Below, one piece after another: positions 5,210 through 50,911 of a DNA stretch of 64,000 bases. Positions within the stretch are counted from its first letter, which is position 1. Every line of letters starts with the position of its first letter. The notes below the pieces were generated by a model. That model did no database searches and was not told where the DNA came from. It worked only from the letters and a program-made list of their open reading frames with translations. A program made the position numbers and the translations under genes. This stretch comes from Patescibacteria group bacterium (GTDB lineage Bacteria > Patescibacteriota > Patescibacteriia > UBA9570), in the NCBI GenBank assembly GCA_024277435.1, contig JAJRVJ010000009.1, forward strand, positions 1,226 to 65,225, written 5' to 3'.

Positions 5210-5782
5210 TTAATTCGAGCTCTTATTGGCACGCTCTACATATTCGCCAGTTTCTGTATTTACGATAATTTGCTCATCTTGCTTAATGAATAGCGGTACT
5301 GGTAATTCATATCCAGTTCCTAATCTCACACGTTTAGTGGCATTTCCAGCGGTATCACCTTTTACTCCCGGAGGAGCTTCCACAACGGTAAGCGTTACCT
5401 TTGGTGGAAGTGAGATTGTTACCGGCCTACCATTAAAACTCATTACTTCAACATCCTCACCTTCTTTCACAAAGTTTGAAATTTCACCAATAGCCTCAGC
5501 TTCAAGTGCAAACTGTTCGTAGGATTCATTATCCATAAATTGATACTGACTACCTTCAATGTACAAAAAATTTGCTTTTGTACGTGTTAAGTCAGCTTCC
5601 TCAATTTTATCACCACCCTTAAAGGTATGTTCACGAACAGATCCAGTGATGAGATTTTTAAGCTTAGTGCGTAATACAGCACTACCACGACCCATTTGCA
5701 AATGATCGGTTGAAATTACTCGGAATGGCGCCCCTTCAAAATCGAGCACCTTTCCAAGTTTAATATCGCTCATTGTTAACAT
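5210..5782 (-). CDS. efp: Elongation factor P
   Basis: 190 aa with full-length EF-P similarity (KLGKVLDFEGAPFRV...GDTAGNATK...). Start 3 nt after the rpsR stop. Confidence 0.9.
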   Translation of the reverse strand: MLTMSDIKLGKVLDFEGAPFRVISTDHLQMGRGSAVLRTKLKNLITGSVREHTFKGGDKIEEADLTRTKANFLYIEGSQYQFMDNESYEQFALEAEAIGEISNFVKEGEDVEVMSFNGRPVTISLPPKVTLTVVEAPPGVKGDTAGNATKRVRLGTGYELPVPLFIKQDEQIIVNTETGEYVERANKSSN

Positions 5783-5785
5783 AGT

Positions 5786-6013
5786 TTATCTACGAACGTA
5801 AGGAATTAACGCCATGTAACGAGCTCGCTTTACAGCCTGAGCTAATTTACGTTGTGTTTTTGCATCGGTACCCAAACGTTTTGCTGGAAGAATTTTTGCA
5901 TAATTAGAAATTACGCGACGCACAATTTGCAAATTCTTATAATCCAACGCCCGCGGATCGATGTCTAACGGTTCGCGCTGTTTCTTTTTGCGCTTGTTAT
6001 ATTTGTAAGCCAT
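5786..6013 (-). CDS. rpsR: 30S ribosomal protein S18
   Basis: 75 aa: ...DYKNLQIVRRVISNYAKILPAKRLGTDAKTQRKLAQAVKRARYMALIPY. Confidence 0.92.
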   Translation of the reverse strand: MAYKYNKRKKKQREPLDIDPRALDYKNLQIVRRVISNYAKILPAKRLGTDAKTQRKLAQAVKRARYMALIPYVRR

Positions 6014-6040
6014 TATGATGTATGTTTGTTATTCGATAAT

Positions 6041-6484
6041 TTAGAATGGAATGTCTTCTACACTAATTTCTTCAGCTGCAGAACTTACATTTGGTTCTGG
6101 CGGAGCTTCTGTTGGTGCTGGAGCTGTAGTAGAAACTGGAGCTCCGCCACCGCCGGCACGAGAACTTAGCATAATAAGGTTATTGGCAATAATTTCTGTA
6201 CGATATTTCTTTACTCCACTCGGATCTTCCCAAGAACGAGTTTCAAGGCGTCCTTCAATATATACCTTCATACCTTTTTTCACATACTGCTGAATAATCT
6301 CGGCTAATTTGCGCCAAGCAACAATATTATGAAATTCTGCCTTCTCTTGCTTCCCACCAGATTGATCTGTCCATTGACGATTCGTAGCAATTGAAAATGA
6401 AGCTACCATTTGTCCAGATGGAATTGTTTTTACTTCAGGATCACGGGTTACATTACCGATGATCATTACTTTATTAAGATCCAT
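6041..6484 (-). CDS. ssb: Single-stranded DNA-binding protein
   Basis: OB-fold N-terminus, Gly/Pro-rich linker and the canonical acidic DIPF C-terminal tail. Confidence 0.9.
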   Translation of the reverse strand: MDLNKVMIIGNVTRDPEVKTIPSGQMVASFSIATNRQWTDQSGGKQEKAEFHNIVAWRKLAEIIQQYVKKGMKVYIEGRLETRSWEDPSGVKKYRTEIIANNLIMLSSRAGGGGAPVSTTAPAPTEAPPEPNVSSAAEEISVEDIPF

Positions 6485-6503
6485 AGATGTAATACTTAAT
6501 AAT

Positions 6504-7130
6504 TTATAATTTAGTTTCGATATCTGTATCGTCTAAGATTGCGTCGAGCTTTTTATCAAGATCTTCTACTGATACACTTTTAGGATCTGCTGCTTCTTTT
6601 TCTTCAGTAACTTCTTCAGCTTTTGTTTCACCAGGCGCTAAATCACCTTTTGCTTCAGCTGCACTTTCTTCCGCTGGTTTTTCCACTGGTTTCTCAATAG
6701 GTTTTTCGGCTGCACGTTCTTTAGCGCGTTTAGCATCTTCTTCTACACCACCTTCAGTAGCCTTTACTGGCTCTTCAACAATTGGTTGAGCTTGCCCAGG
6801 ATGATGATCGGCTAACATTTTTGTAAGCTCTTCTTCAGTACGTTGAATACCTTTTACAAGTAGGTACCGTAATACATCTGGATCAAGGCGAAGTTGCTTA
6901 TCTAACTCAGCCATTTGGCTACGTTCGATATTAAAATACACCAAGTAATAATGACCTGATGTTTGTCGCTTTACTTGGTATTGTAAACGACGTCGACCTA
7001 AATCATGGTCGGCAACGATGCTACCACCTGCGGCAGTAACAAGACCCATGGCGCGTTCTTTCACTGCAGGAACTTGGCTCTCATCTAAGGAACCAGGAAC
7101 AATGAACATTAGTTCATATACTTCATTCAT
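6504..7130 (-). CDS. rpsF: 30S ribosomal protein S6 with ~110-aa acidic E/K/P-rich C-terminal extension
   Basis: MNEVYELMFIVPG... S6 fold, then a tail EKPIEKPVEKPAEE.... The ORF could extend to the upstream Met at 7154. Forms the classic rpsF-ssb-rpsR arrangement. Confidence 0.85.
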   Translation of the reverse strand: MNEVYELMFIVPGSLDESQVPAVKERAMGLVTAAGGSIVADHDLGRRRLQYQVKRQTSGHYYLVYFNIERSQMAELDKQLRLDPDVLRYLLVKGIQRTEEELTKMLADHHPGQAQPIVEEPVKATEGGVEEDAKRAKERAAEKPIEKPVEKPAEESAAEAKGDLAPGETKAEEVTEEKEAADPKSVSVEDLDKKLDAILDDTDIETKL

Positions 7131-7278
7131 ATATTTTTTCTTTTGTGCGTACATCCATTATTGCTATACTCGCACGATTCGAGGACAATAATATGGATAA
7201 TTAAGGATGCAACACTTAATAAATTAGCCTGCGTAGTGTACCAATAAGTTATTATGGTGTCAACTGCCGTGAGATGCC

Positions 7279-7307
7279 AAAAAACCCCTGTATTTTCAGG
7301 GGTTTTT
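7279..7307 (-). terminator. Bidirectional intrinsic terminator (cccctg-tatttt-cagggg) after the response-regulator gene
   Basis: Hairpin flanked by an A-run upstream and TTTTT downstream. Confidence 0.55.
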
Positions 7308-7330
7308 GATACATATTATTATGTGAGAAG

Positions 7331-7696
7331 CTAGATATATTTATTAATCTTCTCAACTACACTACTCATTGTTTGCTCGGCTTTAAGTAAGTAGTCAACT
7401 GCGCCGAGATCTAACCCTCGTTGCTTATCTGACTCCTGTTCTAATACAGTTAGAATAATCACAGGAATATCCTTAAGAGCTTCATCAGCCTTTACTTCTT
7501 TAAGAACATCAAATCCATTCTTTACAGGTAAAATAAGGTCAAGAAGAATTAAGTCTGGTTTTTCTTTACCTAGCGCTACCAATGCCTCTGCTCCATCTAA
7601 AACAGACTCAACAACAAACCCTCCCCTTTCAAGGCCATCCTTGAAGATTCTGGAATAGAACTTATCATCTTCAACAAGTAAGATTTTTTTATTCAT
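7331..7696 (-). CDS. Stand-alone CheY-like receiver-domain response regulator (no output domain)
   Basis: 121 aa: ILLVEDD...DLILLDLILP...K motifs. Lies immediately downstream of the histidine kinase. Confidence 0.85.
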   Translation of the reverse strand: MNKKILLVEDDKFYSRIFKDGLERGGFVVESVLDGAEALVALGKEKPDLILLDLILPVKNGFDVLKEVKADEALKDIPVIILTVLEQESDKQRGLDLGAVDYLLKAEQTMSSVVEKINKYI

Positions 7697-7723
7697 ACTC
7701 TTCTTTTTAATGATTATTGATAA

Positions 7724-9073
7724 TTATATTCGTCTTATGGGAATAGTAACATAAAATATAGAGCCCCTCCCCTTTCCTTTTGACTCAAACCAAATTTTAC
7801 CTCCTAACGACTCAATAATTGATTTTGCAACATATAATCCTAATCCAGACCCTTCTGTTCTAGACCTTTTTGCATCATCTGTTCTAAAAAATTTAGTAAA
7901 AATATTCTTTCGATCCTTTTCATCTATCCCAATGCCTGAGTCTTTTACAGATATCTTATATTCTCCCGCCTGTGCATTTTTTGTTAATTCAACGAACACA
8001 CGAGATGCCTTTGGAGAATAATATAGTGCATTACTAATTAAATTCCGAATCACTTGAAAAAAATAAATATGATCCACTCTTATCATTTCATTATCTTGTA
8101 AATGTGGTGTAAATACAATTTCCTGCCCTTCCTCTCTTGCTAATAAGCTAAATTCTTTAATAAGTTCTTCAATACCCTCCTTGATATTAATATTAACTGG
8201 CTTGAATTCTAGTTTGGCAGACTCAAGCCTAGATACATCAAGTAGCTCATGAACAAGCTGATGCATGCGCACATTAGAATTATGTATTAAATCCAAATAT
8301 TCTTTTTGTTTTTCATTGATCTTTCCATAATCTTCATTCAATAATGATTCAGTAAGAAGCTTAATGGCGCCAAGCGGTGTATTAAGTTGATGAGATGCAG
8401 AAGATACAAACTCTGATTTTGCACGACTCAACCGCTGCTCTTCACTGACATCTTTAAATACCACAACGCTACCATGAATCTTCTCATCACCATCAATAAC
8501 AGGTGCCGCGCACACAGAAATAGGGATAACATTGTGTGATTTTTTTATTCGCAAATAAATATTATTTACCTCTGTGAAACCGCTACATAAATTAATAGAC
8601 TTATTTACCACAGAAGCAATTGAATCAAGAACATTTGCTCCAGACTCATCTGTGGTAACAAAAACAGCATCGTACTTTTTACCAAGTACATTACTTTCTT
8701 TAGCACCAATAAAATCAAGAGCAACCCGGTTTATAGCTGTAATAGCATTATCTTCATCTATTACAAATAAGCCTTCACCAATACTTTCAATAATAGCCTC
8801 CGCTCGATTTTTTTCTTTTTCTAAAGCCATCTCTCCTTTTTTTCTATCTGTAACATCACGAATAATGGCCATTGTTCCCGACTTCCCTTTAAAAGAAATT
8901 TGTTGCGCAGAAATTTCTGTATGCCTAATCACGCCGTCTTTTCTGATGGCATCAAACGAGTATTGTTTTGGAACATCTTTTCCGGCCAAACGATCCTGAT
9001 ATCTTTTTAAGATCAATGGACGATGATACTCTGCAACAAGTTGTAGTATTGGCATTCCAATAAGCTCTTCCAC
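7724..9073 (-). CDS. PAS-HisKA-HATPase sensor histidine kinase (C-terminal portion of a disrupted larger sensor; starts at GTG directly after an in-frame TAG)
   Basis: H-box FVSSASHQLNTPL and ATP-binding GSGLGLYVAKSIIESLGG. Its first codons, VEELIGMPILQL, complete a PAS motif begun in the upstream ORF. Confidence 0.8.
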   Translation of the reverse strand: MEELIGMPILQLVAEYHRPLILKRYQDRLAGKDVPKQYSFDAIRKDGVIRHTEISAQQISFKGKSGTMAIIRDVTDRKKGEMALEKEKNRAEAIIESIGEGLFVIDEDNAITAINRVALDFIGAKESNVLGKKYDAVFVTTDESGANVLDSIASVVNKSINLCSGFTEVNNIYLRIKKSHNVIPISVCAAPVIDGDEKIHGSVVVFKDVSEEQRLSRAKSEFVSSASHQLNTPLGAIKLLTESLLNEDYGKINEKQKEYLDLIHNSNVRMHQLVHELLDVSRLESAKLEFKPVNINIKEGIEELIKEFSLLAREEGQEIVFTPHLQDNEMIRVDHIYFFQVIRNLISNALYYSPKASRVFVELTKNAQAGEYKISVKDSGIGIDEKDRKNIFTKFFRTDDAKRSRTEGSGLGLYVAKSIIESLGGKIWFESKGKGRGSIFYVTIPIRRI

Positions 9074-9706
9074 CTAATAGCCTGTAATCTTAACGGTTGC
9101 ATGATTTGTAAATACTAATTTTCCATCCTGTATGATATTAATACTGTCATGCGCACCATTAACAACCGCAGAATACTTAGTCTCGGATTCTTGTAATTTT
9201 GCAAAAGCCTCCTGTCGCTCCGTAACATCTTCATGCATCATGACTACACTCTGAATCGTATCATTTTTATCTTTGATAGAGTATATCTGCGACTGCACCC
9301 AACGCTTCCTGCCCCTTATCTTAACCGACGTTGTTTTTTCTGGCGTATATTCAAACACTGGAAGAGTAACTACCTCTCCTGCAAACGCTTTTTCAATAAG
9401 AGGCATAAATCCCAATGCTCGAATCTGATCATCTTTTAAGATATTATACTTTTTATGAATCAACGATAATTCTTCTCGACTCACATCCCATAATTTACTA
9501 TACGCATCATTAACTTGTGTGATTTTACCGTCAGGCGTCATTATTTGAATAGCAATAGTAGACTGCTCCATTAACATTCTGAATTTTTCTTCGCTCTGCT
9601 GCAACTCAAGCTTTGTCTGCTCAAGATCTTCAAGCATATTCAATAAAACAGCAGGCTTAAGCAGCTTCTTAGTAGTACGTTCCTTGTTTCTTGCTCTCTT
9701 AATCAA
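9074..9706 (-). CDS. PAS-domain linker protein (middle fragment of disrupted sensor kinase)
   Basis: Coiled-coil linker followed by a PAS fold. Ends ...VFTNHATVKITGY then TAG, which is the TGYxxEELIG PAS signature interrupted by a stop. Confidence 0.7.
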   Translation of the reverse strand: MIKRARNKERTTKKLLKPAVLLNMLEDLEQTKLELQQSEEKFRMLMEQSTIAIQIMTPDGKITQVNDAYSKLWDVSREELSLIHKKYNILKDDQIRALGFMPLIEKAFAGEVVTLPVFEYTPEKTTSVKIRGRKRWVQSQIYSIKDKNDTIQSVVMMHEDVTERQEAFAKLQESETKYSAVVNGAHDSINIIQDGKLVFTNHATVKITGY

Positions 9707-10721
9707 GGGATGTATCTTTATACTTTTTTAGCTCCTTTTTAAGTTCGATCATCTTTTCTTCACGTCCAACAGAATGTTTCGCAAACTTCTGTAACTGTGT
9801 ATTTAATTTTGAAATTGAAACATACCTCCATGCAACCATCATAATCATCACCACTCCAATCATTATGCCAGCAAAAGATGCTACGCGCGCTGCCGTCCAA
9901 TATGGCGCTGGTTCTGCGAACCATTTCACATACATTTCATGATACTCTTCTGTTTCTAAAAACTGTCTAAGCGCTTGATCGAGGCGTTGCTGTAATTCAA
10001 CATCTCCCTCTGCAACGGCAATGCCTCTCTTTATTTCTTCAAGCGGCTCGCCAACAACTTGAATTTTATCACTCAAGCCAGTATCTTCTGTAAGTCGTAA
10101 CATCACCGGCTGTGGATATGCTAGCGCATCAACATTGCCCGATAATAATTCAAAAAAAGCATCGTATGGATGTTGAAATACTTCAAAATACATCCCTTTA
10201 TTCTGCAGTAAGGTTACAGCAACATTCTCCTCAACAATAGCAACGTGCTTACCACGCAAATCATCAACGCTTTCGATTCCCTTACTATCTGCTCGAACAA
10301 ATATAGACACACTAAATGCCTCCATTGGAATAGTAAAATCTAAATATTCATCACGCTCATCAGTGATGCCAATATTTGGGATCACATCGGCCTCGCCGTC
10401 ACGCATTACCTGTAATACCTCGGACCATGTCTCCTCTATTTGATAGGTTAGATTGATATTCGCACGCTTAGCCACCTCATTCATTACATCAATGGCAAAC
10501 CCATATGGCTCACCTAATTCGTCTATAGAATATTGCGGTGGAAATAATTTTGGTATCACAGCAATAACATCAATTTCTTCCATAACATCACCTGTAGCCA
10601 CTGTCTCGTCTTTATCATGGGCAGCAAAAATAACATGTGGAGCACTAAATAACGCTATAGAAACACAAACAAATACAATACTAGCTATTGTATAATTAAA
10701 TTTTGTAAGCTCATTTGTCAT
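9699..10721 (-). CDS. Periplasmic solute-binding (SBP family 3 / amino-acid-binding-like) sensor domain + TM + coiled-coil (N-terminal fragment of sensor kinase)
   Basis: Signal/TM anchor, PBPb-type domain, C-terminal TM (FAGIMIGVVMIMMVAW) and a coiled-coil. Overlaps the next ORF by 8 nt in another frame. Confidence 0.7.
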   Translation of the reverse strand: MTNELTKFNYTIASIVFVCVSIALFSAPHVIFAAHDKDETVATGDVMEEIDVIAVIPKLFPPQYSIDELGEPYGFAIDVMNEVAKRANINLTYQIEETWSEVLQVMRDGEADVIPNIGITDERDEYLDFTIPMEAFSVSIFVRADSKGIESVDDLRGKHVAIVEENVAVTLLQNKGMYFEVFQHPYDAFFELLSGNVDALAYPQPVMLRLTEDTGLSDKIQVVGEPLEEIKRGIAVAEGDVELQQRLDQALRQFLETEEYHEMYVKWFAEPAPYWTAARVASFAGIMIGVVMIMMVAWRYVSISKLNTQLQKFAKHSVGREEKMIELKKELKKYKDTSLD

Positions 10722-10889
10722 CTCGAAAAATCTTATCGAGTTATTCCTGCAGCATGCTCTATGCTATGCAGTATATCACTTCATATTTGCGTGGCAAATA
10801 AAACCCCCGCTCAAACTCATCCCTCTTCTCTACATACATCAATATAGTATATGTACAGGAAAGGACCGGAAGATACGTGGATCAATCCA

Positions 10890-11370
10890 CTATTCTCGAC
10901 GTCCGGCTGGAACACAATCAAGATAGCTCCTAGCTCCATCGAGGTAGATCCGCCAGCGGCCCTCATAGAAGGCCTGACTGAACTCGATCTCCTCGCGGGT
11001 GTAGTGCTTGTAACGCTTCAGCAAGGCGTCAATATCCTTGACCAGGCCAAAGTACAGATGGGTACAGAGGTGAATCCTCTCCAGCTGCCTGCCAACAGTT
11101 ATCTGCGGATCAATGTCTCCCTGCTCGGTCAACTGCTGCGTTCAAGATGCAGATGTAGGCTTCAGCCGTAAGAGGCTTCGTGTTCTTAGCGAGGTCGATA
11201 AGCCGCCGTATGACGCAGATGTAGCGTCCCTTCGTGCGACAAGTGTGGGAGGTGCGGAACTTCCCACTCTTGCGGAACATCTCCTCAGCAACGAGAATCT
11301 GCACATCTTCAAGAGTAATGCGATCCATGATGTAAATTCCTTTGGGAATGTGCGGTATCAAGTGAAACAA
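10890..11370 (-). pseudogene. GC-rich island carrying a frameshifted ~165-aa ORF of unknown family (foreign-looking remnant)
   Basis: Composition at 10860-11340 is clearly more GC-rich than the flanks. Two overlapping minus-strand ORFs (11370-11110 and 11132-10890) would join by a 1-nt shift near 11125. Confidence 0.4.
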
Positions 11371-11475
11371 AAGCGATTCAAATGACTATGCAGTATAGTT
11401 AATTAGCGTATAATGTAAATTTAATAATTATATATAGTAAATATTGAATATTTTTAGCTAACATTATATAATTAT

Positions 11476-11507
11476 TTGTAATAATATTTATTACAACATT
11501 ATATAAT
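11476..11507 (+). promoter_or_regulatory. Putative sigma70-like promoter for the TrmB-family regulator, embedded in two direct repeats aacattatataat (11460 and 11495)
   Basis: TTGTAA ... TATAAT/TTATAT 12-20 nt upstream of the ATG. Direct repeat and ATTATT-N3-AATAAT dyad in the same AT-rich spacer. Confidence 0.3.
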
Positions 11508-11518
11508 AATCTCAAGAC

Positions 11519-12289
11519 ATGAAGTTAGATGAAGTAAAAAAACTTGTAGAAAGCATTGGATTATCCGATAAAGAAGCCTCCGTATATTTATCTCTATTAT
11601 CTTTTGATTACTTAAAAGTGTCTGATTTAGCCAAAAAAGTCGATATTCACCGAGTTGCACTATATGCAGTACTGGATAACTTAATTCAAAAGGGCTTAGC
11701 TAATAAATTCAAAAAAAGTGGCGCAACTTACTTTAGCGCCTTATCCCCTAAGCGACTGTTAAACTACATGGATCGTGAACGTGAAGATATGGAGGCTCGA
11801 TACGAAAAGCAACGCAAATTATTAGAAGAAATGATCCCTAAAATAGAATCTACTCGATTTGAACAAAGTGATAAGCCGCACGTCCAGTTTTATGAAGGAA
11901 AAAAAGGTATGCGTGAAGCCTACGAAGATACACTCACTGCCCAAGAAACTATTAGAGCATATGCCAATGTACAAACCATGCACGAAGCATTACCAAATTT
12001 CTTTCCAAAATATTATAAACGCCGTACCGACGCTAAAATCGCGATCCGTGCAATTATGCCAAACAATACCGCCTCACAAGAACGCGCAGAAAAAGACCCG
12101 CAAGAATTACGCCAATCACGATTTCTTACTGATGACAATACATTTTCACCAGAGGTAAATATTTATAACAACAAAGTACTCATCACTTCATGGAAAGAAC
12201 AGATGGCTATTATTATTGAATCCAAAGAATACGCCGATCTTCAAAAAAGTATTTACGACCAACTCTGGAAATCCCTGCCAAAAAGCTAG
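11519..12289 (+). CDS. TrmB-family transcriptional regulator (HTH + sugar-binding-like C-terminal domain)
   Basis: N-terminal wHTH DKEASVYLSLLSFDYLKVSDLAKKVDIHRVALYAVLDNLIQKGLA. The length of 256 aa is typical. Confidence 0.75.
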   Translation: MKLDEVKKLVESIGLSDKEASVYLSLLSFDYLKVSDLAKKVDIHRVALYAVLDNLIQKGLANKFKKSGATYFSALSPKRLLNYMDREREDMEARYEKQRKLLEEMIPKIESTRFEQSDKPHVQFYEGKKGMREAYEDTLTAQETIRAYANVQTMHEALPNFFPKYYKRRTDAKIAIRAIMPNNTASQERAEKDPQELRQSRFLTDDNTFSPEVNIYNNKVLITSWKEQMAIIIESKEYADLQKSIYDQLWKSLPKS

Positions 12290-35153: not shown

Positions 35154-35408
35154 ACAGTAGATACCACCTACTTCCCAATCGTTTATCTGGAAGACAATCC
35201 GTTACATCAACGTTTAGTTGATCTATACACAATAGTAACCACACCAGATACAGAGTCTGCTCAGGCTGCAGTTATCAACTATGGAATTACGCATATGTTG
35301 GTATGGAAAAAAGGTCCCGAGGCAAAAATATGGAAGGCTCGATTCTCCAACGAATCAATAGTCTACGAAAACGATCAATATCTGATTTATGAATTATAAG
35401 GCCACACT

Positions 35409-35660
35409 ATGAAACGCTCTCACGCTAAAATTCATATTCCCGACTGGCTACGATATATACTTCTCGCCGCTATTCTTATAGTAACCATAACAACTATTAT
35501 CAGCGCCGCCCTTCCAGATCATTTTACCATACTAGGTGACCCGTATCATCACAGCCTAAACTACGCTCCATCACGTGCCTTATGGCCATGGCTTGGAACC
35601 TGGCTCACTATTCTTATAAGTATCGTGTACGGCATATATGTACGCCACACTAAGCGCTAA
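35409..35660 (+). CDS. Small 2-TM membrane protein, hypothetical
   Basis: 83-aa ORF with two hydrophobic helices. Confidence 0.35.
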   Translation: MKRSHAKIHIPDWLRYILLAAILIVTITTIISAALPDHFTILGDPYHHSLNYAPSRALWPWLGTWLTILISIVYGIYVRHTKR

Positions 35661-35989
35661 TCTTCCTTTTGGAAAGGACTATACCCCCTATACCATACTA
35701 CGCAAATACAAATAACTACTACAACGATATATGTGATTAATGTACCAATGTACGTACTTCCAAGTATACGTGTTGCCATCATCTGCAATATTGGAAAAGT
35801 AACAACAGAAATTAACCAAGCATATAATAAACGCTCTCCCTTTGGAATTGTATTAAATGGCCATATTGCTACTGAAATAATATAGCCAATTCCGAAATAC
35901 ACTACAAAACTGGCAAGTAATACAAACATAATCATACTATGACAGCATAGCGATGGATAGATTGCTTGTAAAGTCAAAATCCGATACAA
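35657..35989 (-). CDS. Small 3-4-TM membrane protein (GtrA-like?), hypothetical
   Basis: 110-aa hydrophobic ORF. Converges with 35409 and overlaps it by 4 nt. Confidence 0.4.
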   Translation of the reverse strand: MYRILTLQAIYPSLCCHSMIMFVLLASFVVYFGIGYIISVAIWPFNTIPKGERLLYAWLISVVTFPILQMMATRILGSTYIGTLITYIVVVVICICVVWYRGYSPFQKED

Positions 35990-36001
35990 TCAAAATGTTT
36001 T

Positions 36002-48497: not shown

Positions 48498-48556
48498 AAG
48501 CTACGGAAGGATACTGTAAATACACGAATAAATCAAGATACCCTTATACTACGGCT

Positions 48557-49064
48557 CTATGTAAGCTGCATTAACTGAATAGCATCTCCTATACGAGGAT
48601 TATAATATAGATAGTAATGAAAATCCGCCAATATAAATTCACTAGCACTCATCTGGCCAACAAATTCATAACCCTCCATTGGCGAAGTGAATCCATGCTG
48701 CACAGGCAACGGATACAGTCCAAAAAATACTCCTCTCCCCCTACCTTTAGATCCTGCATTGCAGTATATACTAAACTCTGCCAATTATTGTATTCAGCAT
48801 TATTCGTATCAATTACAGGTTGCGGTGGAACAGCAGCTGGCCAATCATAATCCGTAAATGCACATACCCCTTTGGCAACTTATCCGCGTATCCTGCAATT
48901 AGCTCCTCAAATGGAGCAATCTCTTTTACTGAAAAAGCAATGTCAGCAACCTTACCGTTTGTGTAAGAAATTTCTACCTCCTCAAGATCTGGCGCCTCCC
49001 AATATAATAACGGTAGCCGACCGCTCCACGCTGGACTTACTAATTGCAAATCAATCCAACACAA
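48557..49064 (-). pseudogene. Degenerate coding remnant (two out-of-frame minus-strand ORFs, possibly a GyrI-like/unknown small-protein gene)
   Basis: ORFs 49064-48813 and 48784-48557 are separated by a stop and shift. The protein-like composition is on the minus strand only. Confidence 0.25.
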
Positions 49065-49252
49065 TGGCGCAATCTTATCTTATAAGTGCTCAAATCCCTA
49101 TTGAAACACATCATTCCATTCAGGAAATAAGGTTGAGTGTTCGGCTCGTCTTTAAATGAATATGTAGTAAACATTTTCATAATGGTTGTACATGTTCTCT
49201 AACATTATCTATACTACCACATATACGGCCCACTAAAAGATGGCTAAGAATT

Positions 49253-50002: not shown

Positions 50003-50062
50003 AAATACTATAGATGCTACTATGACGGCGTTATTACACGATCAATAATTACCCATTCACAT

Positions 50063-50815
50063 ATGCATGAAAATCTATTACTCAAAGCTGGCTTAACTGA
50101 TAACCAAGTACGTATTTACGATCTCTTACTCCGTAAAGGGCCAGCCACCGCCGCTGAGCTAACCGAAGTCACTAAGATGCAACGCGGAAGCGTATATTAT
50201 GTTCTTGATAGTTTAATAGCAGAAGAACTCATTGAAAAAACCAAGCGAGGTGCAAAAACACTCTTTCAAGCGGCACATCCAACTGTATTAATGGAGTATA
50301 TTAATCGCAAAAAAAAATACAATTGAGCAAGTTGAAAACTCATTAAGTACAGCCATGCCAAGCATGATAGAAAACTATAAATTATCTAACAAGCTACCAG
50401 GTGTATATGCTTTAGAGGGTAAGAAGGTATTCAGCGAGCATTCAACGAATTACTAAAAGATAACTTACCAATTTTAGCTATTGAGGATACAGGTATTTTA
50501 TACGATTTAATGCCAGCATATGAAGAAGAATTCATGAGGCAAACAGTTGCCATGAAACATAAAAATCGCTCCGTCATTCCCTCAAGTAATCAACGCGTAT
50601 TCAAAGATGAAGAAAAAGCATGGGAGTATCGAAGTATCGATGTTGAAAAATTTCCATTTAAAATGGATATCACCATAACAGATAAACGTGTAATTATTAG
50701 TTCGGTTCAAGAAAAAACTGCCATTGGTGTAGTAATTATTCATGATGAAATTATCAGAAACTTCAAAATATTATTTGAAGTATTATGGTCTATTGGAAAA
50801 CCAGACGCAGTATAA
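50063..50815 (+). pseudogene. TrmB-family regulator paralog, disrupted by two frameshifts (first at an A9 homopolymer, 50315-50323)
   Basis: HTH ORF 50063-50326. Shifting frames gives ...IEQVENSLSTAMPSMIENYKLSNKLPGVYALEGKKVFSEH... and then IQRAFNELLKDNLPILAIEDTG..., both aligning with the 11519 TrmB protein. Confidence 0.6.
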
Positions 50816-50869
50816 TATACAGCTAGTTACTAGGGGTAACTACAAATAACTATTCGACATACATATATA

Positions 50870-50898
50870 TTGTCAAAATAGGGTTATTTAGGTATACT
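50870..50898 (+). promoter_or_regulatory. Putative sigma70-like promoter TTGTCA-17-TATACT for the 50912 gene
   Basis: The hexamers are 17 nt apart and lie 14 nt upstream of the ATG. Confidence 0.4.
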
Positions 50899-50911
50899 TA
50901 TCTGCATAATC

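What the first reader, a model, noticed from the sequence alone, without database searches (positions are those of the whole stretch)
10860..11340. Compositionally foreign GC-rich island with a frameshifted ORF between the sensor locus and the TrmB regulator
About 480 bp are conspicuously more GC-rich than the surrounding sequence. They carry a minus-strand ORF of about 165 aa that needs a 1-nt shift near 11125 to read through (MDRITLEDVQILVAEEMFRKSGKFRTSHTCRTKGRYICVIRRL...//...DPQITVGRQLERIHLCTHLYFGLVKDIDALLKRYKHY...). AT-rich spacers with direct repeats flank it. It looks like a decayed horizontally acquired gene, such as a nuclease, toxin or mobile-element protein, of a family I could not place.
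Basis: seen in the sequence. Interest (0 to 1): 0.55.

Follow-up and report, generated by a model that had tools for sequence, protein, structure and literature searches.

The report
Foreign orphan pseudogene in a variable TrmB slot
The GC-rich patch is a broken, compositionally foreign gene with no known relatives, and it sits in a slot next to a conserved TrmB-type regulator where related candidate-phyla (CPR) bacteria each carry a different, unrelated GC-rich orphan gene behind the same promoter and leader.

Summary
Window 10855-11355 is the GC maximum of the 64 kb (52.6% against 38.4±2.7%). It carries a minus-strand ORF (ATG 11328, stop 10890, about 147 aa) broken by a +1 frameshift at 11113-11141. 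Third-codon-position GC flips phase at the break and is about 10 SD above host genes, so this is foreign-looking coding DNA, not a structured RNA (no Rfam hit, folding z about -0.8).

The protein is an orphan. I found nothing in Pfam, PHROGs, NCBIfam, PADLOC, PDB, 5.8 billion protein clusters, an exhaustive HMMER scan of 1.84 billion representatives, or in phage, plasmid, viral, genome and metagenome DNA.

The new result concerns context. The host is a Patescibacteria bacterium. In relatives whose neighbouring TrmB regulator is 79%, 75% and 60% identical, the same position holds a different, mutually unrelated GC-rich orphan ORF. Each lies behind the same promoter (TTTAC-N16-TATACTG) and 5' leader, and homology stops about 25-35 nt before the start codon. 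A Kerfeldbacteria genome has five tandem TrmB-plus-orphan modules.

The island is therefore the now-inactivated cargo of a lineage-variable "partner slot", not a random insertion. Nuclease, toxin or transposase identity is unsupported. How the cargo turns over is unresolved; 12-bp direct repeats flank two of the islands.

The parts
10855..11355 (.). GC-rich island (about 53% GC in a 38% GC genome).
   Evidence: Composition profile. Highest 480-bp GC window of the 64 kb.
11110..11328 (-). Island ORF, 5' part in frame A: ATG 11328..11326, 72 codons, premature TGA at 11112..11110.
   Evidence: GC by codon position 0.54/0.44/0.63.
10890..11141 (-). Island ORF, 3' part in frame B (+1 relative to frame A), open from 11141 to the TAG at 10892..10890.
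   Evidence: GC by codon position 0.60/0.38/0.66.
11113..11141 (-). Interval that must contain the +1 frameshift (a 1-nt insertion relative to an intact gene). It is bounded by the frame-B upstream stop and the frame-A stop.
   Evidence: Read from the sequence. The GC3 phase flip is centred at about 11150±20.
11337..11343 (-). Shine-Dalgarno-like AAAGGAA, 8 nt upstream of the ATG.
   Evidence: Sequence. GGAAT is conserved at the same place in L003 and L010.
11329..11385 (-). Conserved 5' leader of the partner-slot transcript. A predicted 5' stem-loop lies at 11357-11386.
   Evidence: Alignments A1, A2 and A4. There are 10 predicted pairs, one of them compensatory. blastn homology to L002 and L003 ends at 11363 and 11352.
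11392..11419 (-). Promoter of the island ORF: -35 TTTACA (11419..11414), 16 nt, -10 TATACT (11397..11392).
   Evidence: Promoter scan, 10/12 match. TTTAC and TATACTG are invariant in 5 lineages.
11386..11397 (.). Proximal copy of the perfect 12-bp direct repeat CTATGCAGTATA. It overlaps the -10 box and the transcription start region.
10764..10775 (.). Distal copy of the 12-bp direct repeat. It forms the -10 box of the promoter-like site of the downstream sensor gene (TTGCCA-16-TATACT, 10797..10770).
11476..11496 (.). 21-bp near-perfect palindrome TTGTAATAATATTTATTACAA, just downstream of the TrmB promoter -10 box. It is a candidate TrmB operator.
   Evidence: Sequence. It is the most conserved block of the intergenic alignment A1. 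TGTA-N11-TACA recurs upstream of TrmB in L010 and L012.
11444..11472 (+). Promoter-like site for the TrmB gene (TTGAAT-17-TATAAT).
11519..12289 (+). TrmB-family (TrmBL2-like) regulator gene, intact, 256 aa. It is the conserved anchor of the slot.
   Evidence: PF01978, E 2.6e-12. 730 homologues, mostly Patescibacteria. A family profile matches TrmBL2 (5BOX) over residues 6-248, E 1e-6.
7724..10721 (-). Downstream sensor histidine kinase (SBP_bac_3, PAS, PAS, HisKA, HATPase) split into three ORFs by a frameshift (9699-9706) and an in-frame TAG (9074-9076). It lies in the same transcription direction as the island ORF, and no terminator was found between them.

Best explanation
The island is a compositionally foreign, probably horizontally acquired, protein-coding gene of about 147 codons with no detectable relatives. 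It occupies a lineage-variable "partner slot" lying divergent to a conserved TrmBL2-like regulator gene in a Patescibacteria genome.

How it works:
1. Transcription starts at a conserved sigma-70-type promoter (TTTACA-16-TATACT).
2. It runs through a conserved leader of about 57 nt, with a 5' stem-loop and a GGAA ribosome-binding site, into the cargo ORF.
3. In this genome it probably reads on into the sensor-kinase gene.
4. The TrmB-family protein probably controls the divergent region through the palindrome at 11476-11496.

In this genome the cargo ORF is inactivated by a 1-nt insertion (+1 frameshift at 11113-11141), and the sensor kinase downstream is also broken. The whole leftward transcription unit is therefore decaying.

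Shown: composition, coding periodicity, the frameshift, orphan status, conservation of promoter and leader, and non-homology of the cargo between lineages.

Inferred: foreign origin, regulation by TrmB, that the frameshift is real rather than an assembly error, and how cargo is exchanged.
For: Composition and coding:
- The GC island is the window maximum.
- GC3 is 0.63 and 0.66, against a host value of 0.291±0.036. The codon score is far outside the host range, and the periodicity phase flips at the ORF break.

Not an RNA or a contaminant:
- No Rfam hit at E<=1.
- Folding z is -0.79 and -0.73.
- No tRNA or tmRNA.
- No match in E. coli, plasmid or phage DNA.

Orphan status:
- No family hit.
- No homologue in 5.8 billion clusters.
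- The exhaustive phmmer scan of 1.84 billion representatives gave only one artefactual tandem-repeat hit.
- Nothing in PDB, by tblastn against phages and plasmids, or in viral, genome and metagenome scans.

The slot:
- TrmB relatives L002 (79%), L003 (75%) and L010/L011 (60%) each have, at the same divergent position, an ORF of 54.7-56.8% GC with GC3 of 0.68-0.76 in genomes of about 40% GC. L012 (60%) has a weaker case: 50.4% GC with GC3 of 0.52, in a 45.5% GC locus.
- These ORFs are unrelated to each other and to the window ORF by BLASTP, Smith-Waterman with shuffles, tblastx and blastn.
- Those tested are themselves orphans.
- Promoter and leader are conserved: TTTAC and TATACTG are invariant in five lineages. 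Window-L003 identity is 71% and window-L002 63%, against 51±2.8% for shuffles. The coding sequences are at background, 52-54%.
- blastn homology to L002 and L003 stops at 11363 and 11352.
- Partner GC exceeds TrmB GC in 10 of 11 modules.
- A Kerfeldbacteria locus has five tandem TrmB genes, with a no-Pfam ORF between each neighbouring pair, divergent from the TrmB gene that follows it.

Decay:
- Lesions cluster in this transcription unit, with one frameshift and one in-frame TAG in the sensor kinase. The other long ORFs of the window look uninterrupted.
Against: - No donor or homologue was found, so horizontal transfer is inferred from composition alone.
- Only three close and about four distant relatives could be examined. 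One of them (L009) has an ordinary PALP gene in the slot. In the distant lineages the GC excess is small.
- The 12-bp repeat in the window encloses the conserved leader, whereas in L002 the repeat lies after the leader. A single simple insertion model therefore does not fit both.
- The frameshift cannot be told apart from an assembly indel without reads.
- Regulation by TrmB is untested.
- The structure model is uninformative (pLDDT 44).
Confidence: 0.6

Rival explanations
1. The island is a small non-autonomous mobile cassette that inserted into the promoter region of the sensor gene. It duplicated 12 bp of target (TATACTGCATAG on the minus strand) and supplied an outward-facing -35 box (TTGCCA) that rebuilt a promoter for the sensor gene. 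This partly overlaps the best explanation, since it would be the mechanism of cargo arrival.
For: - A perfect 12-bp direct repeat brackets the island. It has only two exact copies in 64 kb, and near-matches are at chance level. Simulation gives p about 0.007.
- The similarity between the two promoter copies is limited sharply to the 12 bp.
- The distal copy matches the window-specific variant GCATAG rather than the GCTTAG or GCTCAG variants of the relatives.
- L002 has its own perfect 12-bp repeat, AGGCAACTTTTT, bracketing its GC-rich cargo, with p about 0.004.
- A TTGCCA-16-TATACT promoter-like site lies at the distal junction.
Against: - No terminal inverted repeats, no transposase or integrase nearby, and no second copy in the window or in any collection.
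- The repeat-bounded segment in the window includes the leader that is conserved in L002, L003 and L010. If the whole segment were an insertion, the leader would have to travel with it. In L002, however, the repeat lies after the leader.
- No repeat was seen flanking the L010 or L012 cargo.
Confidence: 0.2
2. The ORF is a native, vertically inherited partner gene of TrmB that evolves so fast that homology is lost. Its GC-richness would come from a local process, such as GC-biased repair, conversion or mutation, or selection on the mRNA, rather than from transfer.
For: - The position, orientation, promoter and leader are conserved over lineages whose TrmB proteins are only 60% identical.
- Partner GC exceeds TrmB GC in 10 of 11 modules, including distant ones. 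That looks like a property of the slot rather than of 10 separate donors.
- None of the cargo ORFs has a homologue anywhere, so no donor is evident.
Against: - The cargo ORFs differ in length (114-152 aa) and in apparent fold. L003 is receiver-like (E 0.0026), while the window ORF is not.
- No residual similarity exists in any frame, even between genomes whose TrmB is 75-79% identical and whose leader is 63-71% identical.
- Homology ends abruptly about 25-35 nt before the ATG rather than fading.
- GC3 of 0.63-0.76 alongside a normal GC2 is what a gene from a genome of 55-60% GC looks like.
Confidence: 0.13
3. The gene is actually intact. Either the frameshift is an assembly or sequencing indel, or it is decoded by programmed +1 frameshifting at CAT-TGA (11115..11110), helped by the Shine-Dalgarno-like GGGAG just upstream, as in prfB.
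For: - Both halves keep a strong coding periodicity, and there are no further stops.
- The frame-A stop codon TGA sits at the end of the overlap, and a +1 slip there gives ...GRH-DPQITV... in frame B.
- GGGAGA lies immediately 5' of CAT-TGA.
- TGA is the rarest stop codon in this genome, 3 of 45.
Against: - A His-tRNA re-pairing from CAU to AUU is poor, so this is not a known slippery site.
- The spacing from the SD-like element (0-1 nt) differs from the 3 nt of prfB (my own knowledge).
- No relatives exist to test conservation of the site.
- The adjacent sensor kinase carries two further lesions, including a nonsense codon that an indel error cannot create. That points to real decay of this unit.
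Confidence: 0.15
4. The GC-rich island is a structured non-coding RNA gene. GC-rich islands in AT-rich genomes are often RNAs.
For: It is a GC-rich island in an AT-rich genome. ORFs are open on both strands. It lies behind a promoter.
Against: - No Rfam match at E<=1 or at gathering score in the whole window.
- The minimum free energy is not better than shuffles on either strand, with z of -0.79 and -0.73.
- There is clear 3-nt periodicity with a phase shift.
- Relatives carry unrelated sequence at the site.
Confidence: 0.02

Closest known systems
Horizontal-gene-transfer hotspots, meaning variable accessory genes between conserved core genes in bacterial chromosomes (my own knowledge of the concept)
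   Same: One flank is a conserved core (TrmB, AhcY, PfkB, syntenic in L002 and L003). The content at the boundary differs between lineages and is compositionally atypical. The cargo consists of orphan genes.
   Different: - The variable unit is a single small ORF placed behind a conserved promoter and 5' UTR, with homology ending about 25-35 nt before the start codon.
- No integrase, tRNA or phage genes mark the site.
- The association follows a regulator family and is repeated in tandem in another lineage.
Integron gene cassettes (attI plus the Pc promoter expressing promoterless, often orphan, cassettes)
   Same: A fixed promoter and leader express exchangeable, small, mostly orphan ORFs whose composition differs from the host. 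Short direct repeats lie at the cargo boundaries in two cases.
   Different: - No IntI-type tyrosine recombinase nearby.
- No attC-like imperfect palindrome or GTTRRRY core at the boundaries (sequence inspection).
- Only one cargo ORF per slot rather than an array.
- The flanking repeats are 12 bp long and differ between loci.
TrmB/TrmBL2 family regulators of Thermococcales (PDB 3QPH, 5BOX)
   Same: The anchor gene has the TrmB wHTH domain (PF01978). The family profile aligns over its full length with TrmBL2. A palindromic site lies in its own promoter region.
   Different: It is bacterial (Patescibacteria). No sugar-binding TrmB C-terminal domain was detected. Pairing with a divergent hypervariable orphan gene is not a described property of TrmB or TrmBL2, and no paper in the searchable library links TrmB with CPR genomes.
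IS or MITE insertions that create target-site duplications and hybrid promoters
   Same: A 12-bp direct repeat flanks the island. An outward -35-like hexamer at the element end forms a promoter with the duplicated -10 box.
   Different: There are no terminal inverted repeats, no transposase, only a single copy and no related copies in any database.

Membership tests
Structured RNA (any Rfam family) | Match to a covariance model, or thermodynamic stability beyond that expected from composition. | tested here: not met
   No hit at E<=1 or at gathering score. Folding z is -0.79 and -0.73.
Protein-coding sequence (former gene) | Three-base periodicity in an open frame, with a start codon and a ribosome-binding site. 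| tested here: met
   GC1>GC2<GC3 holds in both halves, with a phase shift at the ORF break. The ATG is at 11328, with AAAGGAA 8 nt upstream.
Pseudogene | A disrupted reading frame relative to an intact homologue. | tested here: inconclusive
   A +1 frameshift is present in the assembled sequence. No intact homologue exists for comparison, and the reads are not available.
Horizontally acquired gene | Atypical composition and codon usage relative to the host. | tested here: met
   GC3 is about +10 SD. The codon score is -0.27 and -0.29, against 0.146±0.045 for the host.
Horizontally acquired gene | Patchy phylogenetic distribution, or an identifiable donor homologue. | tested here: inconclusive
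   The ORF is absent from the closest relatives at the same locus, which carry different cargo. No donor or homologue was found anywhere.
   Pfam, PHROGs, NCBIfam and PADLOC gave no hit at E<=10. PDB gave none. The AlphaFold model has pLDDT 44, which is unusable. An R-x5-H-x-Y motif, which I noticed by eye as HEPN-like, has no profile support.
Insertion sequence or MITE | Terminal inverted repeats. | tested here: not met
   No inverted repeat pairs the two island ends. Inspection of the ends shows only 6 of 8 matching bases.
Insertion sequence or MITE | Target-site duplication. | tested here: met
   A perfect 12-bp direct repeat flanks the island, with p about 0.007.
Insertion sequence or MITE | Multiple copies, or a transposase gene. 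| tested here: not met
   There is a single copy in the window and none in any collection. No transposase is nearby.
Integron cassette | An adjacent IntI integrase and attI/attC recombination sites. | tested here: not met
   The neighbours are TrmB, AdoHcyase, an SBP/PAS/HK sensor and PfkB. No GTTRRRY core or attC-like palindrome was seen at the boundaries.
Integron cassette | Exchangeable promoterless ORFs expressed from a fixed upstream promoter. | tested here: met
   The promoter and leader are conserved while the coding sequences are unrelated in the window, L002, L003 and L010. This is a functional analogy only.
Response-regulator receiver domain (as in the L003 and L013 partners) | Profile similarity to a receiver (REC) domain. 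| tested here: not met
   No Response_reg hit for the window ORF. hhalign probability is 0.1% and the hmmsearch score is -1.4 against a small REC profile.
TrmB family (the neighbouring anchor gene) | An N-terminal TrmB winged helix-turn-helix domain. | tested here: met
   PF01978, E 2.6e-12, 46.8 bits against a cut-off of 25.6. The family profile matches TrmB (3QPH) and TrmBL2 (5BOX).

The most novel reading that the evidence does not exclude
In one clade of Patescibacteria, a TrmBL2-like regulator gene may anchor a dedicated gene-capture and expression slot. Unrelated foreign ORFs would be repeatedly installed within about 25-35 nt of the start codon, behind one conserved promoter and 5' UTR, leaving 12-bp duplications. 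That would be an integrase-less functional analogue of an integron, or a regulator-plus-hypervariable-effector module that can be arrayed in tandem. The window's island would be one, now dead, captured cargo.
Probability: 0.12. Interest if true: 0.8.

Novelty: new variant of a known kind. Interest (0 to 1): 0.5.

Why it matters
CPR/Patescibacteria genomes are small and largely uninterpretable, and little is known about how they acquire and express new genes.

Taken alone, the island is a dead orphan gene. Its context suggests something more: a recurrent arrangement in which a conserved regulator and a conserved promoter and leader are combined with a different GC-rich orphan ORF in every lineage.

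If that is general, it would define a new accessory-gene platform in a major, poorly understood part of bacterial diversity. It would also offer a handle (the TrmB family) for finding the fastest-turning-over genes in these genomes, which are likely to be involved in host or phage interaction.

If it is not general, the finding is an ordinary horizontally acquired pseudogene.

Tried and rejected
1. Structured RNA. No Rfam match and no excess folding stability.
2. Protein homology for the fused 147-aa ORF. Pfam, PHROGs, NCBIfam, PADLOC and PDB gave nothing. The indexed search of 5.8 billion clusters and tblastn against phages and plasmids also gave nothing. The exhaustive phmmer scan gave one hit, P0001, which I rejected. 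It is a 9x tandem-repeat protein in which a short KN-KPLTAE word is summed nine times.
3. Other copies of the island. There are none in the window, in viral, genome or metagenome contigs, or in plasmid, phage or E. coli DNA.
4. Structure prediction. pLDDT was 44, so I did not run a fold search.
5. Leader probe (CTATACTGCNNAGTCATNTGAA) against metagenome and viral contigs. It gave five chance hits inside ordinary coding sequence and none in viral contigs.
6. A single fast-evolving partner family. All-vs-all Smith-Waterman, BLASTP, tblastx and blastn were at background. The window-L012 GRWR motif gave z = 4.1 in one run and 2.7 in another, and L012's ORF has no family from which to build a profile.
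7. Receiver-domain identity for the window ORF. Rejected.
8. The 12-mer as a general promoter consensus. Rejected, since other upstream regions lack it and near-matches are at chance level.
9. Alternative genetic code (TGA as a sense codon). The host uses TAA, TAG and some TGA as stop codons. Reading through the TGA in frame A meets further stops, and the periodicity supports a frame change.
10. Plus-strand coding. The plus-strand ORFs are the codon-aligned antisense frames, which stay open because A-ending codons are rare in the sense frame. They lack an RBS, and the conserved promoter and leader face the other way. I did not search them separately against the large protein database; PADLOC and Pfam gave no hit.
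11. Exact look-ups of the window's own proteins failed, so I could not fetch the source contig for wider context.
12. The GTDB scan with TrmB found only an irrelevant 37% match.
13. Literature. No paper in the searchable library links TrmB with CPR genomes.
Full report
**1. The observation**

The segment 10860-11340 is 52.6% GC in a window that averages 38.4% (sd 2.7% for 480-bp windows). It is the single highest GC window in the 64 kb. The GC-rich core runs from about 10855 to 11355. On the right, a spacer of 20-25% GC leads to the TrmB gene (11519-12289). On the left, about 130 bp of ordinary composition leads to the start of a sensor gene at 10721.

Two minus-strand ORFs overlap in different frames. 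The first is 11328..11110 (MDRITLEDV..., 72 aa, stop TGA). The second is 11132..10890 (80 aa, stop TAG). One +1 shift somewhere in 11113-11141 joins them into about 147 aa.

**2. Coding or RNA?**

No Rfam family matches, either at E<=1 in 10000-12200 or at gathering score in the whole window. Neither strand folds better than shuffled sequence, with z of -0.79 and -0.73.

Both ORF halves show the coding signature GC1>GC2<GC3: 0.54/0.44/0.63 for the first and 0.60/0.38/0.66 for the second. The phase of the GC3 peak changes at about 11150, which is where the frames change. The ATG at 11328 is preceded by AAAGGAA at a distance of 8 nt.

The plus-strand ORFs are the codon-aligned antisense frames. 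Such frames stay open whenever A-ending codons are rare in the sense frame. They have no ribosome-binding site, and the conserved promoter faces the other way. I conclude that this is, or was, a minus-strand protein-coding gene.

**3. Foreignness**

GC3 of the 44 long host ORFs is 0.291±0.036, with a maximum of 0.361. The island halves are therefore about 10 SD away. Their synonymous-codon score is -0.27 and -0.29, against 0.146±0.045 for the host (minimum 0.037).

The island is not E. coli, plasmid or phage DNA.

**4. No relatives**

The fused protein has no hit in any of the following:
- Pfam, PHROGs, NCBIfam or PADLOC at E<=10.
- PDB sequences.
- The indexed search of 5.8 billion protein clusters.
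- tblastn against phages and plasmids.
- Pattern-plus-tblastn scans of viral, GTDB-genome and JGI-metagenome contigs.

The exhaustive phmmer scan of 1.84 billion representatives returned one hit, which is an artefact. It is a 711-aa protein built of nine identical repeats, each sharing the short word KN-KPLTAE with the query.

None of the five possible island ORFs was ever called as a protein in the collection. AlphaFold without an alignment gave pLDDT 44, which is unusable. No nuclease, toxin or transposase identity is supported.

**5. Context: the key result**

The neighbours are bacterial housekeeping genes (EF-P, S6, MetK, AdoHcy hydrolase, PfkB) and a TrmB-family regulator. TrmB homologues are overwhelmingly from Patescibacteria/CPR genomes. 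The family profile aligns over its full length with archaeal TrmBL2 (5BOX, E 1e-6).

I fetched the genomic contexts of the relatives:
- L002: TrmB 79% identical.
- L003: 75%.
- L009: 61%.
- L010/L011: 60%, the same sequence in two independent assemblies.
- L012: 60%.
- L013/L014: Kerfeldbacteria, 58%.
- L015-L017: Uhrbacteria, 56%.

In L002, L003 and L010/L011, the divergent upstream neighbour of TrmB is again a small ORF of 54.7-56.8% GC, with GC3 of 0.68-0.76, in genomes of about 40% GC. L012 shows the same pattern more weakly.

These ORFs are unrelated to the window ORF and to each other by BLASTP, Smith-Waterman against shuffles, tblastx and blastn. They have no convincing family: L003 is weakly receiver-like (E 0.0026) and the others have nothing. 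Those tested are singletons and are absent from viral contigs and plasmids.

What lies upstream of them is conserved. The -35 box TTTAC, a 16-17 nt spacer, the -10 box TATACTG, an initial GTCAT, a 5' stem-loop and a GGAAT ribosome-binding region all align across lineages. Promoter-plus-leader identity is 71% for window-L003 and 63% for window-L002, against 51±2.8% for shuffles. The first 120 nt of the coding sequences are at background, 52-54%.

By blastn, homology of L002 and L003 to the window ends at 11363 and 11352, about 25-35 nt before the ATG. To the right it continues through TrmB, AdoHcy hydrolase and PfkB.

In Kerfeldbacteria, five TrmB paralogues stand in tandem, with a different no-Pfam ORF between each neighbouring pair, divergent from the TrmB gene that follows it. 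Over all modules, partner GC exceeds TrmB GC in 10 of 11 cases. L009 is the exception, with an ordinary PALP gene in the slot.

The island is therefore the cargo of a conserved expression slot, not a random insertion.

**6. Anatomy and likely working**

On the minus strand, in order:
- Promoter: -35 box at 11419..11414 and -10 box at 11397..11392.
- Leader at 11385..11329, with a predicted stem-loop at 11386..11357.
- Ribosome-binding site at 11343..11337.
- ORF from 11328 to 10890, with the frameshift.
- No terminator-like site.
- A second promoter-like site (TTGCCA-16-TATACT, 10797..10770).
- The sensor gene.

On the plus strand, TrmB has its own promoter-like site (11444-11472). Immediately after it comes a 21-bp near-perfect palindrome, TTGTAATAATATTTATTACAA (11476-11496). 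This is the best-conserved block of the intergenic alignment. It recurs as TGTA-N11-TACA in L010 and L012. I infer, without a test, that it is the TrmB operator and that TrmB controls the divergent region.

**7. Decay**

The island ORF needs a +1 correction. The sensor kinase downstream has the domain order SBP_bac_3, TM, PAS, PAS, HisKA, HATPase. It is cut into three ORFs by a frameshift (9699-9706) and by an in-frame TAG (9074-9076) that falls inside a PAS motif (...ITGY*VEELIG...).

The other long ORFs of the window look uninterrupted. The lesions therefore cluster in this one transcription unit, which argues for real decay rather than random assembly error. An indel error in the island cannot be excluded without reads.

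A programmed +1 frameshift at CAT-TGA, with an SD-like GGGAG just upstream, is conceivable but is not a known slippery configuration.

**8. How did the cargo get there?**

A perfect 12-bp direct repeat, CTATGCAGTATA, brackets the island at 10764-10775 and 11386-11397. These are the only exact copies in 64 kb, and near-matches are at chance level (9 found, 10.2 expected). Other promoters in the window lack the motif. In simulation, flanks like these share a word of 12 or more bases with p about 0.007.

The distal copy carries the window-specific variant GCATAG rather than the variants seen in the relatives, so the duplication is recent and local. L002 has its own perfect 12-bp repeat (AGGCAACTTTTT, 353-364 and 816-827) bracketing its GC-rich cargo, with p about 0.004.

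These look like target duplications. The picture is not simple, however:
- In the window the repeat encloses the conserved leader, whereas in L002 it lies after the leader.
- There are no terminal inverted repeats.
- No recombinase gene is nearby.
- No repeats were seen around the L010 or L012 cargo.

I therefore leave the exchange mechanism open.

**9. Comparison with known systems**

The nearest concepts are:
- Chromosomal hotspots of horizontal transfer.
- Integron cassettes, which match in function (a fixed promoter and exchangeable orphan ORFs) but lack the defining integrase and attC sites here.
- IS or MITE insertions that create hybrid promoters, where only the duplication feature is met.

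The anchor gene is a genuine member of the TrmB family. No paper in the searchable library links TrmB with CPR genomes.

**10. Verdict**

The island itself is an ordinary kind of object: a compositionally foreign, orphan, frameshifted gene.

Its setting is unusual. A conserved TrmBL2-like regulator with a conserved promoter and leader is combined with a different GC-rich orphan ORF in each lineage, and the module is arrayed in tandem in another lineage. This rests on about seven lineages, so it is a lead rather than an established system.

Interest is 0.5. The most novel reading, an integrase-less gene-capture and expression slot, has a probability of about 0.12 and would deserve an interest of about 0.8 if true.

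Noticed in passing
window 7724-10721 (minus strand): A sensor histidine kinase (periplasmic SBP_bac_3, TM, PAS, PAS, HisKA, HATPase) is split into three ORFs. One break is a frameshift at 9699-9706. The other is an in-frame TAG at 9074-9076, inside a PAS motif (ITGY*VEELIG). It is probably a pseudogene. It lies directly downstream of the island ORF in the same direction.
   Followed up: partly
window 11476-11496: A 21-bp near-perfect palindrome, TTGTAATAATATTTATTACAA, lies just after the TrmB promoter -10 box. It is the most conserved intergenic block among the window, L002 and L003. A TGTA-N11-TACA equivalent sits upstream of TrmB in L010 and L012, and the Kerfeldbacteria paralogues have TGTC...GACA-type variants. 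It is a candidate TrmB operator.
   Followed up: partly
L013 1-6762 (Kerfeldbacteria GCA_016182555.1, JACPGJ010000007.1) and L014: A tandem array of five TrmB-family paralogues, with a different small no-Pfam ORF (74, 181, 133 and 207 aa) between each neighbouring pair, divergent from the TrmB gene that follows it. Each of these ORFs has higher GC than its TrmB gene. One partner (5224-5847) is receiver-like, with a Cys-rich C-terminus.
   Followed up: partly
L002 353-364 and 816-827: A perfect 12-bp direct repeat, AGGCAACTTTTT, brackets the GC-rich cargo ORF of the closest relative. Just distal to it lies a strong hairpin (GTGGAAGG...CCTTCCAC) followed by a T-rich run. If the cargo were removed, this arrangement would look like an empty promoter-leader-terminator unit. 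The consensus scan did not call a terminator there.
   Followed up: partly
L003 3-296 (minus strand): The GC-rich cargo of the 75% relative starts MTTRNTVLLIDDNADL... and is weakly receiver-domain-like (PF00072, E 0.0026, below the cut-off). The contig ends inside the ORF.
   Followed up: partly
window, whole 64 kb: No tRNA, tmRNA or Rfam family was found anywhere in the window. Several stretches of 570-910 bp have no ORF of 150 aa or more: 5783-6503, 7155-7723, 35154-36001, 48498-49252 and 50003-50911. This is unusual for a compact CPR genome. I did not examine them.
   Followed up: no
window 6504-7154 (minus strand): The ribosomal protein S6 ORF is 216 aa, but the S6 domain covers only residues 13-101. 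It therefore has a long C-terminal extension, or the start is mis-set.
   Followed up: no
window 10983-10893 (3' end of the island ORF): The GC3 periodicity of frame B fades over the last 30 or so codons, and a third frame (ORF 10966..10817, 49 aa) is open there. A second frameshift, or a chimeric 3' end, cannot be excluded. The signal is not significant with so few codons.
   Followed up: partly
P0001 (711 aa): This protein consists of nine near-identical tandem repeats of about 79 aa (MIPINKKHTKPPSPNPGKDEPSTS...). It produced a misleading E-value of 1e-6 against the island ORF by summing a short shared word over the repeats.
   Followed up: yes
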